Positions 24,001 to 27,000 of a DNA stretch of 64,000 bases are shown piece by piece. This stretch comes from Escherichia coli (lineage in GTDB: Bacteria; Pseudomonadota; Gammaproteobacteria; Enterobacterales; Enterobacteriaceae): assembly GCF_051903065.1 (NCBI RefSeq), contig NZ_CP178438.1, one strand, 5' to 3'. Position 1 is the first letter of the stretch. Each line of letters starts with the position of its first letter. The position numbers were made by a program.

Positions 24001-27000
24001 CGGTCGGTTCTTACGGTAAAACGACACAACCAAACGCTTCTTATCCTGCAATGAACTGCTTTATTACCGAGTTTAGTGACCGCACAGACACTCACTTTTA
24101 AGAAAAACAGAATGGTAAACAAACTCCATGAATTACAATAGCTCTCTGGCTGCCGCCACAATAGCTTGCGCGGTTAACCCGTACTCTCTCTGTAAAAAGT
24201 CCTGAGTTTCAACCTGGCCATACCGCTCTTTAACCCCCACCCGACGCATGGGCACAGGACAAGTTTCTACAAGCACTTCAGCAACTGCTGAACCTAATCC
24301 ATTATGAATACGGTCATGACTCCAATTAGTTGAATTAGGGGTATAATAGCCACTTTTAAGGTTCTTTCATGGTCACAGTTAACCTTCATTGCTCCTGTTG
24401 CCAGTCCGTTCAGGTTTACCGTCACGGGAAGAACCCAAAGGACATGATCGATTTCGCTGCCGTGACTGTCATCGAGTGCTTCAGCTCACTTACCGTTACG
24501 AGGCCCGTAAACCGGGAGTTAAAGAGCAAATCACTGAAATGGCTTTCAACGGTGCCGGAGTTCGCGATACTGCCCGTACGCTGAAAATCGGCATTAATAC
24601 TGTCATCCGGACTTTAAAAAACTCTCGCCACGAAGAATAACGTCATACCCGGTCGCTCATGCTGATATGGCTCTCATCTGCGAACTTGATGAGCAATGGA
24701 GTTTTGTCGGCAGTAAAGCGCGACAGCACTGGCTCTGGTACACGTACAACACGAAAACTGGTGGCGTTCTGGCCTACACTTTTGGCCTACGGACTGATTA
24801 AACCTGTCGTGAATTGCTGGCGCTGCTTGCCCTTTTACCATCGGTATGTTGACCACTGACGAATGGGGTAGTTACACCAGAGAGTTACCGAAGGAGAAGC
24901 ATCTGACTGGTAAGATTTTTACTCAGCGCATTGAGCGCAACATCTACCTCTGAGAACCCGAATCAAACGTCTGGCCCGCAGAACTATCTGTTTCTCGCGC
25001 TCTGTAGAACTTCATGAAAAAGTCATCGGTGCCTTTATCGAAAAATATATGTTCTACTAATTGGAGTCACCACCTTCGTTTGTTTAAAGAACCTGCTGGT
25101 CCTGCCATTAATATTACCTGCTGATTGCTTCACATCCGGATTCCTCGCACTGCGCGCGGGTTATTGTTTCGTTTTCGGCCACGGGGTCGCCAGGGCTCTG
25201 TTTGCAGGCCATGATGGCCTGACCTGTACTGTTTCTCAGGCACTGAGATGTCCGTTTACGCCATTTGTTCCCGGATATCCTTAACCTCTGACGTTTGTTC
25301 CCTGCCCCTCTGTCTGATAACGAATACGCTCACAACGCACAGTACTGAACAATACCGACAACAACATGTCTTACATGAAATTCGCTGTAACATCCACCGG
25401 AAAACATTTTCAGATATCGGATGAGGTACTACTTCCATTGACAGCGCGAGGTAACAAAATTGATGGTAACTCTGACCATTAACCGTAAACCGCAGGGTAT
25501 TTTCAGTAAATCACCGGCAACGCCGCTGCAGGATAAAACGGACACAGCATACAAAATGAAGGCCGGTGACCAGATACCACAGTTGAACGATAAACAGAAA
25601 CCTGCTGATAAAACACCGTGGCGACATGACAAAACGCCAGAGCAAAAACCGTAAGCGCATTATTCGTCTTGTGGAACTCTGGCCTGAGTCATTCAACCGG
25701 GAAAAAAACAAAACCACTTAAAGTGGGGATACCTGACGACCTGATACAGGATATCGCCATCCGAGAACTGGCGTTTGGCGCTGGTACATTACATGCAGCA
25801 GTGGCGTCTTATGTGCAGTCTCCGCGCTATTACCGTGCGTTAATAGCAGGTGGCGCCCGTTACAACCTGAACGGTCAGCCGTGCGGGGAAGTGACACCAC
25901 AGGAACAGAAAGAGGCAGAGACCCGTTTAATGATGCTGAATGACCGACGAAAAGCCAGAAAACCTCGTTGACTGCACAACTGCGCTGATTCACTGAGCTG
26001 TAATCAATGTACAGCGCTGTACCGGACGATGGGTAATGGCGATCACAACCGGTAACCCCAGAGACAATGCGACTGTTTTTAACGCAACATACTGGCCAGA
26101 TGTATCACCCCGGGCAACCCGAAAACACCTTTCAACCTGGCATTGTCCGCCAGCGCTTATCACCTTCCAGGTCTGTTGCAATAAATCCACCCGTTGCGAA
26201 CATTCTTCATCAACCGTGGCACTGGCCCGCGGATGGCAAATGCTCGTCTGGCTGAGCAGCAACAGGCATCGTATTGTTGCTCCTCCATGTTGTTCCCGCA
26301 ACCAGCGTAATACCACCGGCGAGGATGGACAGGCAGTGTGATTACGCTCAGTAATACGTTCGTGCACCTGTCGGTAAAAGGAAGTACAGAATGCCTGAAT
26401 CTGTTGCCCGTTGATGTTTCCTTCAGCCGAATGGAGCGTGAAGTGGACTGCCAGCAGACGCGGCCAGTGGTCCACCGCCTGCTGAACAAAACGCCGGATG
26501 TCTCCCGGCTCTGAAATTAAGGCTTCGGTTATTTGCACGAAATGTTCCTTTTCAAACCCTGTTGAATTTTGTTAAGCCGGTGCAGACACACGGGAAGGTG
26601 CGCATCAACACCGGTGTAATGCCAGTTATAAACAATGTGAATGGAATGACGAATCAGTCAGGAAAGAGCTACAACCTGCTGGCTGACCGGAGAGGGTCAG
26701 CAGGAAAATGAACGGTAATGTCGCCAGCACCAGGGACAGGGCTGATTTCCGCAATACCAGCGCCGGCATTTTGCACATTGCCAGCGTACCGGCATCACAA
26801 CACGTTTCATGCTGCTGCTCCTCGTGATTCCTCAATTCGCTGCTGCATCCACTGCTCCACTTCACTTTTGTACCAGCGGCTGCTGCGGCCCAGCTTGATG
26901 GGTTTCGGGAAATGGCCTTCACTGATCAGCTTGTAAAACCATTTGTCGGTCATACCGGTGAAACTGGTGATGTAGTTCATGTCGATCAGGGGATCGTCAG

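What the first reader, a model, noticed from the sequence alone, without database searches (positions are those of the whole stretch)
25626..25971. ProQ/FinO-family gene interrupted by a homopolymer frameshift
The C-terminal two thirds align well with the ProQ N-terminal FinO-like domain, but the ATG frame and the conserved frame are offset at an A7 run (25702-25708). Either a recent pseudogenisation of an island-encoded RNA chaperone or a sequencing error; the same type of lesion occurs in IS3 orfA.
Basis: seen in the sequence. Interest (0 to 1): 0.35.

Follow-up and report, generated by a model that had tools for sequence, protein, structure and literature searches.

The report
Common frameshifted island ProQ/FinO pseudogene
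This is a genuine but ordinary broken copy of a small RNA-chaperone (ProQ/FinO-type) gene on an E. coli genomic island; the same broken version occurs in about 6% of complete E. coli genomes and RefSeq already annotates it as a pseudogene.

Summary
An A7 run at 25702-25708 separates a 31-codon ATG frame (25626-25721) from the +1 frame that carries the rest of a FinO domain (to 25971). Removing one A gives a 114-aa protein that matches Pfam ProQ/FinO over nearly the whole profile (E 2e-21).

It is very unlikely to be a sequencing error. The exact 81-mer around the run occurs in 347 of 5426 complete E. coli genomes, and PGAP annotates the locus as a frameshifted ProQ/FINO pseudogene.

- A6 or A9 restores the frame; A8 does not.
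- Intact relatives carry A5CC, so the lesion is a C-to-A change plus one extra A.
- A second lesion lies upstream. A 2-bp deletion in CATATG at 25625/25626 cuts off a ~55-aa N-terminal extension (25463-25654) that most relatives (158-185 aa) keep in frame.
- The allele also has His at the position of ProQ Arg58, which is essential for RNA binding.

Rare in-frame A6 siblings of the same haplotype exist. Some are real (Illumina-derived contigs) and at least one is probably a long-read artefact.

Best reading: an eroded island-borne RNA-chaperone gene that has spread widely with a mosaic CP4-type island. Interest is low.

The parts
25463..25971 (+). Whole ProQ/FinO-family pseudogene. Its ancestral form was a single ~168-aa ORF.
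   Evidence: PGAP annotates the identical sequence as 'ProQ/FINO family protein, frameshifted' at these positions. Uninterrupted 168/169-aa alleles L010 and L012 align along its whole length.
25463..25654 (+). Detached N-terminal extension: a 63-codon ORF (MVTLTINRKPQGIF...) in a different frame from the FinO domain.
   Evidence: It matches the N-terminus of the 158-185-aa homologues almost residue for residue up to ...TPWRH (alignment A3). Where the FinO part is intact, it is annotated as a separate 'hypothetical protein'.
25624..25628 (+). Site of lesion 1: a 2-bp (AT) deletion. CATATG in the long forms reads CATG here.
   Evidence: DNA alignment A4. The window and OkiPb01708 lack the AT that is present in L010, L012, 55989, F6326C1 and NCTC86.
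25626..25721 (+). ORF1, 31 codons plus stop. It encodes the basic N-terminus and first helix of the FinO domain (KRIIRLVELWPESF).
   Evidence: Adding this piece extends the Pfam match from profile position 23 back to position 5.
25702..25708 (+). Lesion 2: the A7 run. Intact alleles read GGG-AAAAACC-AAAACC, and rare in-frame siblings read A6C.
   Evidence: Alignments A1, A2 and A4. The A6 alleles L013 and L014 are annotated as intact 114-aa CDS.
25630..25971 (+). ORF2 frame (+1): the remaining ~85% of the FinO domain, including the Tyr70 and Arg80 equivalents, with His in place of the Arg58 equivalent.
   Evidence: Pfam E 3.2e-17. Alignment to the ProQ N-terminal domain 5nb9, FinO 1dvo and NMB1681 3mw6. 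The role of R58 is taken from PMC10168233.
25990..26538 (-). Convergent neighbour, 182 aa, of the UCP030791 family. It is always found next to the FinO gene.
   Evidence: The same arrangement occurs in L002-L008, L010, L013-L019, with PF27752 listed on relatives. The window copy itself gave no Pfam or NCBIfam hit.
26807..27043 (-). AlpA-family regulator belonging to the same conserved island module.
   Evidence: Pfam Phage_AlpA, E 2e-10. Synteny is the same in all loci fetched.

Best explanation
This is a decayed copy of an island-borne FinO-domain RNA-chaperone gene.

The ancestral gene encoded a ~160-180-aa protein: a ~45-65-aa N-terminal extension followed by one FinO domain. By analogy with FinO, ProQ and RocC, such a protein would bind intrinsic-terminator hairpins and their U-tails on sRNAs or mRNAs. 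That function is inferred, not shown here.

In this lineage three changes accumulated:
- A 2-bp deletion in CATATG detached the N-terminal extension. This left a 114-aa FinO-only ORF that begins at an internal Met with no obvious Shine-Dalgarno sequence.
- A C-to-A change turned A5CC into A6C. This version is still in frame and still exists in rare strains.
- Slippage then added one A to give A7. Translation from the ATG now ends after 31 codons.

The allele also carries replacements at otherwise conserved positions: Leu to Ser in WPELF, and Arg to His at the ProQ Arg58 equivalent.

The broken allele was not removed. It travelled with a recombining CP4-type island and is now the commonest state of this haplotype. 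At most a trace of full-length product could arise through rare +1 slippage. I regard the gene as non-functional.
For: Frames and domain:
- The frame layout and A7 run are read directly from the sequence.
- The Pfam ProQ match is E 2e-21 after conceptual repair.
- Sequence matches to solved FinO-domain structures: ProQ 2e-11, FinO 6e-10, NMB1681 1e-9, RocC 2e-8.

Genuine allele:
- The exact 81-mer is in 347 of 5426 complete genomes.
- The 551-bp region is at least 99% identical in 339 genomes.
- PGAP annotates it 'frameshifted'.

Ancestral states:
- Intact A5CC alleles of 114, 158, 168 and 169 aa exist.
- Most of the more divergent homologues, including Salmonella and Citrobacter, are 158-185 aa and cover at least 96% of the long form.
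- The A6 in-frame intermediate exists on the same haplotype.

Selection:
- dN/dS is 0.12-0.62 among intact alleles, 0.12-0.45 for all but one pair.
- Among the A7 alleles there are 0 synonymous and 1-2 non-synonymous differences.

Function of the replaced residue: R58A abolishes binding of all seven RNAs tested in ProQ (PMC10168233), and the window has His at that position.

Erosion of chromosomally integrated FinO-like genes is described as a general pattern in PMC9977716.
Against: - The allele is surprisingly successful for a dead gene. It occurs in 347 genomes, at up to 5 places per genome for the query region.
- It sits in a ~900-bp block (25077-25976) that is 99-100% identical among the loci compared, while the neighbouring gene differs by 3-11%.
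- ORF2 has acquired no further stop codon or frameshift in the alleles examined, although they are too similar for that to carry weight.
- In-frame A6 siblings occur on all three sub-haplotypes. That pattern could mean recurrent switching rather than a single inactivation.
- No expression data were available.
Confidence: 0.85

Rival explanations
1. Assembly or sequencing error in this particular window: the true sequence is A6 and the 114-aa FinO-only gene is intact.
For: A6 versions of exactly this haplotype exist, giving a protein identical to the repaired window product (P0067). Homopolymer miscalls do occur at this site in public assemblies. L016 carries several other 1-nt homopolymer deletions in sul2 and elsewhere.
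Against: Among complete genomes carrying this haplotype, 347 have A7 and only 2 have A6. The window is 99.98% identical over 44.9 kb to CP033635, which has A7 at the corresponding locus. The long-read errors documented here (L016) are deletions, which would produce A6 from A7, not the reverse. Even with A6, the upstream 2-bp deletion and the Arg58-equivalent His would remain.
Confidence: 0.04
2. The split gene is still expressed. This could be by +1 ribosomal slippage of tRNA-Lys on the A run, by transcriptional slippage (A7 to A6 in the mRNA), or by termination-reinitiation at TAA-A-GTG (25719-25725), which would give two polypeptides that reassemble.
For: The A run allows perfect re-pairing of tRNA-Lys after a +1 shift (read directly from the sequence). 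A GTG in the ORF2 frame lies one base after the ORF1 stop. In N. meningitidis ProQ the first helix is reported to be conformationally variable while the core is formed by helices 2-4 (PMC9977716). The allele is abundant and has no further lesions.
Against: Intact relatives need no frameshift (A5CC), so the site is not a conserved recoding signal. The in-phase slippery heptamer A_AAA_AAC favours -1 slippage, and the -1 frame ends 13 codons later at TGA 25742-25744 (read directly from the sequence). No stimulatory structure was found. Local folds are unremarkable. Seven A's is short for efficient transcriptional slippage, on my general knowledge. There is no Shine-Dalgarno sequence before the GTG. 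The Arg58-equivalent His argues against a retained RNA-binding function.
Confidence: 0.07
3. The A6/A7 tract is a reversible phase-variation switch that turns the island's RNA chaperone on and off, or the off state has been positively selected.
For: A6 and A7 both occur on each of three sub-haplotypes, which differ at the R/C and A/D positions. One genome (CP033635) carries A7 copies and an A6 copy. Illumina-derived contigs confirm that A6 is real in some strains.
Against: The ratio is 347 to 2 in complete genomes. At most about one genome could hold A8 (rank argument from the spread listing). To my knowledge, mononucleotide contingency tracts with useful switching rates are usually 8 bases or longer, and none of this kind is established in mismatch-repair-proficient E. 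coli. Recombination among island copies can shuffle the tract state relative to polymorphisms 200-300 bp away without repeated slippage, and the mosaic structure supports this. Some A6 calls are artefacts.
Confidence: 0.04

Closest known systems
E. coli ProQ N-terminal FinO domain (PDB 5nb9) and Pfam PF04352
   Same: Best solved-structure sequence match (E 2e-11) over residues 8-102 of the intact 114-aa allele. The Tyr70 and Arg80 equivalents and the PCGE motif are conserved. The Pfam hit is well above the gathering score.
   Different: There is no linker and no Tudor-like C-terminal domain. The gene is island-borne rather than core. This allele is frameshifted twice and has His at the Arg58 position.
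FinO of F-like plasmids (PDB 1dvo)
   Same: It has a FinO domain preceded by an N-terminal extension, as in the 158-185-aa long forms of this family, and it is carried on a mobile element.
   Different: The extension shows no detectable sequence similarity to anything in Pfam (protein 4). The gene is chromosomal, on an island, not on a conjugative plasmid. No FinP-like partner RNA was identified.
Minimal FinO-domain proteins: N. meningitidis NMB1681 (3mw6), L. pneumophila Lpp1663 and the RocC FinO domain (7rgu)
   Same: The 114-aa short-form alleles are similarly little more than a FinO domain. Sequence matches are E 1e-9 to 1e-7.
   Different: In this family the short form arises secondarily, through independent upstream frameshifts: a 2-bp deletion in the window and OkiPb01708, and a 5-nt insertion in 55989.
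Programmed frameshift sites of IS1, IS3 and dnaX (A-rich slippery heptamers)
   Same: An A-rich run with an in-phase A_AAA_AAC heptamer lies between two overlapping ORFs.
   Different: The productive frame here is +1, not -1. Relatives are in frame without any shift. The site arose by mutation from A5CC.

Membership tests
ProQ/FinO family (Pfam PF04352) | Significant full-length match to the family profile | tested here: met
   Repaired product: 76.4 bits against a cutoff of 27, profile positions 5-107 of 109. ORF2 alone: 62.9 bits.
ProQ/FinO family (Pfam PF04352) | Sequence similarity to experimentally solved FinO-domain structures | tested here: met
   ProQ 5nb9 at 2.2e-11, FinO 1dvo at 5.7e-10, NMB1681 3mw6 at 1.1e-9, RocC 7rgu at 2e-8, using the 97%-identical intact allele as query.
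ProQ/FinO family (Pfam PF04352) | Uninterrupted reading frame encoding the domain, i.e. a functional member rather than a relic | tested here: not met
   The A7 run shifts the frame after codon 26-27 of the domain ORF. A 2-bp deletion upstream detaches the N-terminal extension. PGAP labels it 'frameshifted'.
ProQ/FinO family (Pfam PF04352) | Concave-face RNA-binding residues equivalent to ProQ R58, Y70 and R80 | tested here: inconclusive
   The Y70 and R80 equivalents are kept (SPRYY, GGARY). The R58 equivalent is His in all A7 and A6 alleles but Arg in every other homologue aligned. R58A abolishes binding in ProQ. The effect of His itself is untested.
ProQ/FinO family (Pfam PF04352) | Binding of terminator hairpins with 3' U-tails, and RNA chaperone activity | not testable with these tools
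   This needs gel-shift, CLIP or RIL-seq experiments with the intact allele.
Programmed ribosomal frameshift site | The shift site is conserved among homologues and leads into the productive frame | tested here: not met
   Homologues read A5CC in frame. The in-phase heptamer favours -1 slippage, and the -1 frame stops at 25742-25744, whereas the domain continues in +1.
Phase-variable (contingency) homopolymer locus | Tract-length polymorphism among close relatives at appreciable frequency | tested here: inconclusive
   A6 and A7 both exist on the same haplotypes. The ratio is 2 to 347 in complete genomes, and some A6 calls are artefacts.
CP4-type (CP4-57/CP4-6-like) E. coli genomic island | A module of AlpA, YfjI (DUF3987), YagK/YfjJ, a YeeP-like GTPase, antirestriction, RadC and CbtA/CbeA genes | tested here: met
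   RefSeq annotation of the 99.98%-identical record. Pfam hits for AlpA, YagK_YfjJ_C and DUF3987.

The most novel reading that the evidence does not exclude
The A6/A7 tract works as a reversible on/off switch, or as a positively selected off state, for an island-encoded FinO-domain RNA chaperone. Island carriers would then toggle or silence a protein that would otherwise compete with host ProQ for terminator-bearing RNAs. This would explain why the 'broken' allele dominates and sits in an unusually conserved 900-bp block shared by otherwise divergent islands.
Probability: 0.05. Interest if true: 0.4.

Novelty: already known. Interest (0 to 1): 0.1.

Why it matters
It matters little beyond annotation hygiene. 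The locus should be treated as a two-lesion pseudogene spanning 25463-25971. It should not be read as a 100-aa 'ProQ/FinO family protein', which is the name some database entries give to the ORF2 product.

The survey gives a small worked example of how FinO-like genes erode after moving to the chromosome, and of the stepwise origin of a homopolymer frameshift (A5CC to A6C to A7C).

It also shows that the intact island family is unstudied in the literature I could search. That family is 158-185 aa, under purifying selection, and always convergent with a UCP030791 gene next to alpA. It is the more interesting target if anyone wants to find new FinO-domain and RNA partnerships.

Tried and rejected
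- **Sequencing error.** Considered very unlikely from population counts. It remains a 0.04 rival because no reads were available.
- **Programmed -1 frameshift at A_AAA_AAC.** Rejected. It leads into the wrong frame, which hits a stop after 13 codons, and the site is absent from intact relatives.
- **Antisense terminator.** The A7 allele creates a minus-strand hairpin plus U-tract (25726-25702). The 66-nt minus-strand segment containing it folds no better than shuffles (z -1.3), and the hairpin does not form in the intact allele. Treated as chance.
- **Structured RNA at the convergent gene ends (25960-26040).** The signal is only marginal on the minus strand (z -2.4, 3 of 200 shuffles). Not pursued.
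- **Rfam scan of the whole window.** Nothing near the locus; the only hit is C0719 at 52219-52440.
- **Promoter scan of 25000-26700.** No sigma-70-like sites.
- **Literature on island-borne FinO-domain genes next to alpA.** Searches returned nothing relevant (one search failed on syntax).
- **Using A6 alleles to time the lesion.** Inconclusive. A6 occurs on all sub-haplotypes and part of that signal is long-read artefact.

Full report
**1. The observation**

- An ATG at 25626 opens a 31-codon ORF, MTKRQSKNRKRIIRLVELWPESFNREKNKTT, which stops at 25719-25721.
- A run of exactly seven A's occupies 25702-25708.
- The +1 frame is open from 25630 to the stop at 25969-25971. It encodes ...GKKTKPLKVGIPDDLIQDIAIRELAFGAGTLHAAVASYVQSPRYYRALIAGGARYNLNGQPCGEV....

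ORF2 alone matches Pfam PF04352 (ProQ/FinO) at E 3.2e-17, covering profile positions 23-107 of 109. Deleting one A gives a 114-aa product that matches at E 2e-21, covering positions 5-107. The ATG-frame piece therefore encodes the first helix of the same domain. The two pieces are halves of one gene, not a chance juxtaposition.

One arithmetic correction is needed. ORF2 is +1 relative to ORF1, so A6 or A9 restores the frame. A8 does not.

**2. Error or real allele?**

A megablast of 25450-26000 against 5426 complete E. coli genomes found 867 genomes with a match. Of these, 339 were at least 99% identical, and the first 40 listed were all 100% identical.

An 81-base probe centred on the run is short enough that any single difference drops identity below 99%. 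It matched exactly in 347 genomes from many hosts, countries and laboratories.

PGAP annotates the locus as 'ProQ/FINO family protein, frameshifted' in every A7 record I opened. The window is 99.98% identical over its first 44.9 kb to one of those records, CP033635. A sequencing error private to this window is therefore very unlikely.

**3. What intact relatives look like**

Closely related alleles read CGG-GAA-AAA-CCA-AAA-CC (REKPKPL) at this site, that is A5CC:
- OkiPb01708 (97% identical, 114-aa CDS) and strain 55989 (90% identical, 114 aa);
- F6326-C1 and NCTC86 (158 aa);
- two further loci with uninterrupted ORFs of 168 and 169 aa.

The A7 run is therefore a compound change: a C-to-A substitution (Pro to Thr) that creates A6C, followed by the gain of one A.

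The predicted in-frame intermediate really exists. An A6 version of the 80-mer matches exactly in two complete genomes. One is a third island copy inside CP033635 itself and the other is APEC IMT5155. Both are annotated as intact 114-aa CDS, and their product equals my conceptual repair.

**4.

PGAP starts the pseudogene at 25463, not 25626. A protein search with the 158-aa form shows why. Most of the more divergent homologues, at 57-85% identity and including Salmonella, Citrobacter and Shigella, are 158-185 aa long and cover at least 96% of the long form.

Their N-termini (M[VT][TK]LTINRKP.GI...KTPWRH-MTKRQRKNRKR...) align almost residue for residue with the window's 63-codon ORF at 25463-25654. 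That ORF lies in a third reading frame (alignment A3).

DNA alignment with the 168/169-aa alleles pins the break down. The long forms read GGCGACATATGACA. The window and OkiPb01708 read GGCGACATGACA, a 2-bp deletion at 25625/25626 (alignment A4).

Strain 55989 lost the same N-terminal extension independently, through a 5-nt insertion further upstream. So short 114-aa FinO-only alleles have arisen more than once. The window allele is a short form that was then broken again at the A run.

**5. Signs of decay beyond the frameshifts**

Among intact alleles, dN/dS over 110 codons is 0.12-0.62 (0.12-0.45 for all but one pair). The family as a whole is therefore under purifying selection.

The A7 alleles differ from one another by 0 synonymous and 1-2 non-synonymous changes. 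They are young, and this is too little data for a selection test.

The A7/A6 haplotype carries four derived replacements relative to all outgroups:
- Leu to Ser in the conserved WPELF motif of helix 1;
- Pro to Thr at the run;
- Met to Ile;
- Arg to His in ...GALRAAV....

From the HMMER alignment to ProQ, that last Arg corresponds to ProQ Arg58. Published gel shifts show that R58A abolishes binding of all seven RNAs tested, on a par with R80A (PMC10168233). The Tyr70 and Arg80 equivalents are retained.

Because the A6 in-frame siblings share the His, I cannot tell whether it preceded or followed loss of function.

**6. The A6/A7 polymorphism**

An exact-sequence look-up finds the A6 in-frame protein on all three sub-haplotypes, which differ at the ...KARKPR/KDRKPR and SPRYY/SPCYY positions. 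The counts are 19, 6 and 10 (+5) contigs. The 100-aa ORF2 product of A7 alleles appears on at least 134 contigs, and that is an undercount because PGAP emits no protein for pseudogenes.

Part of the A6 signal is artefact. Locus L016, from a 5.19-Mb contig, has several other single-base homopolymer deletions in sul2 and elsewhere. However, two Logan contigs assembled from Illumina runs, L018 and L019, also carry A6 without that signature. The polymorphism is therefore real.

Three explanations fit: surviving ancestors, occasional reversion, or recombination among island copies shuffling the tract relative to sites 200-300 bp away. The mosaic structure favours recombination. The block 25077-25976 is 99-100% identical among the loci compared, while the adjacent gene is only 89-97% identical, and the break falls right at the end of the FinO gene.

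With 347 A7 against 2 A6 in complete genomes, and at most one or two single-difference variants in total (rank argument), this does not look like a fast phase-variation tract.

**7. Could the broken gene still work?**

- The heptamer A_AAA_AAC is in phase in ORF1 and resembles the IS1 -1 frameshift site. But the -1 frame reads KKQNHLKWGYLTT and stops at 25742-25744. The domain continues in the +1 frame.
- Intact relatives have no shift site at all.
- No stabilising structure was found. Local folds are unremarkable.
- A GTG in the ORF2 frame lies one base after the ORF1 stop (TAA-A-GTG). It has no Shine-Dalgarno sequence, so reinitiation to give a split protein is conceivable but unsupported.
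- Rare +1 slippage on seven A's may give a trace of full-length product.

I put all 'still expressed' scenarios together at about 7%.

**8. Context**

The gene sits in a conserved module found in every locus I fetched: FinO gene, then a convergent 182-aa UCP030791-family gene (stop codons 18 nt apart), alpA, a 190-aa hypothetical gene, and YagK/YfjJ paralogues.

This module lies inside a CP4-type island that also carries YfjI (DUF3987), a YeeP-like GTPase, antirestriction, RadC and CbtA/CbeA genes. Upstream are a dead IS1 and a floR-tet(A)-strAB-sul2 resistance block.

In some genomes the same FinO module follows an intact transketolase-PTS-LacI cluster. The window keeps only a transketolase fragment next to the IS1 remnant.

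The review PMC9977716 already notes that FinO-like genes integrated into chromosomes tend to erode. I found no paper on this particular island family.

**9. Verdict**

The finding is real and the pseudogene interpretation is right, with these corrections:
- two frameshifts, not one;
- restoration needs A6, not A8;
- the gene spans 25463-25971;
- the allele is common rather than strain-specific, and almost certainly not an error.

It is already annotated as a frameshifted pseudogene in hundreds of RefSeq genomes, so I rate it as already known and of low interest.

The only mildly novel reading left open is a selected or reversible off-switch for an island RNA chaperone, which I put at about 5%.

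Noticed in passing
window 9033-9110 (IS3 orfA; A run at about 9056-9060): The IS3 orfA carries a 1-nt deletion relative to canonical IS3. The 81-nt probe aligns to 82 nt in BL21(DE3) and thousands of other copies. The exact lesion is in 221 genomes, and PGAP labels this IS3 'frameshifted'. From the reading frame, the loss appears to be in the AAAAAA run near the 5' end (SKKPRKQH becomes SKNPVNS...). This is not the programmed orfA/orfB site.
   Followed up: partly
window 25077-25976 versus 25977-26700: There is a sharp mosaic boundary at the end of the FinO pseudogene. The 900-bp block that includes the pseudogene and its 5' leader is 99-100% identical in the A7/A6 loci compared. The adjacent UCP030791 gene and the alpA spacer drop to 51-97% identity. 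This suggests recombination among island copies.
   Followed up: partly
window 25310-25462: The roughly 150 nt upstream of the long-form start codon are about 90-95% conserved, even between alleles whose further-upstream flanks are unrelated (alignment A5). The region could be a promoter or leader, or the small ORF 25366-25482. No sigma-70 consensus was found.
   Followed up: no
window 25702-25726, minus strand: On the minus strand the A7 allele reads CCACUuuaAGUGG followed by UUUUGUUUUUUU, a terminator-like motif facing the convergent UCP030791 gene. The 66-nt segment containing it folds no better than shuffles (z -1.3), and the hairpin is absent from the intact allele's fold. It is probably chance.
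   Followed up: yes
window 13441-22100: A resistance block sits inside the CP4-type island: floR, tet(A)/tetR, aph(6)-Id, aph(3'')-Ib and sul2, with ISCR2/IS91 fragments. It is adjacent to papA/papB/papI fimbrial remnants.
   Followed up: no
window 1-44893 versus 44894-64000: The first 44.9 kb are 99.98% identical to CP033635, where the island abuts an integrase remnant and cadC (the pheU side, on my recollection of the K-12 map). In the window the right flank is instead a TssA-like gene, glcA, glcB and the C0719 sRNA at 52219-52440. So a near-identical island sits at two different chromosomal sites. No tRNA gene lies in the window.
   Followed up: partly
window 24369-25060: A divergent IS1 copy has a frameshift and an internal stop (PGAP). 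It separates a 177-bp transketolase fragment from the FinO module. In other genomes an intact transketolase-PTS-LacI cluster occupies this position. This suggests an IS1-associated deletion.
   Followed up: no
L016 and L017 (public assemblies GCA_037891405.1 and GCA_946798875.1): L016 shows multiple 1-nt homopolymer deletions in conserved genes, for example sul2 C5 to C4 and A6 to A5. In L017 the called genes show sul2 split into two ORFs and an AlpA-containing ORF of 293 aa. 'Intact' A6 FinO calls from such assemblies should not be trusted.
   Followed up: partly
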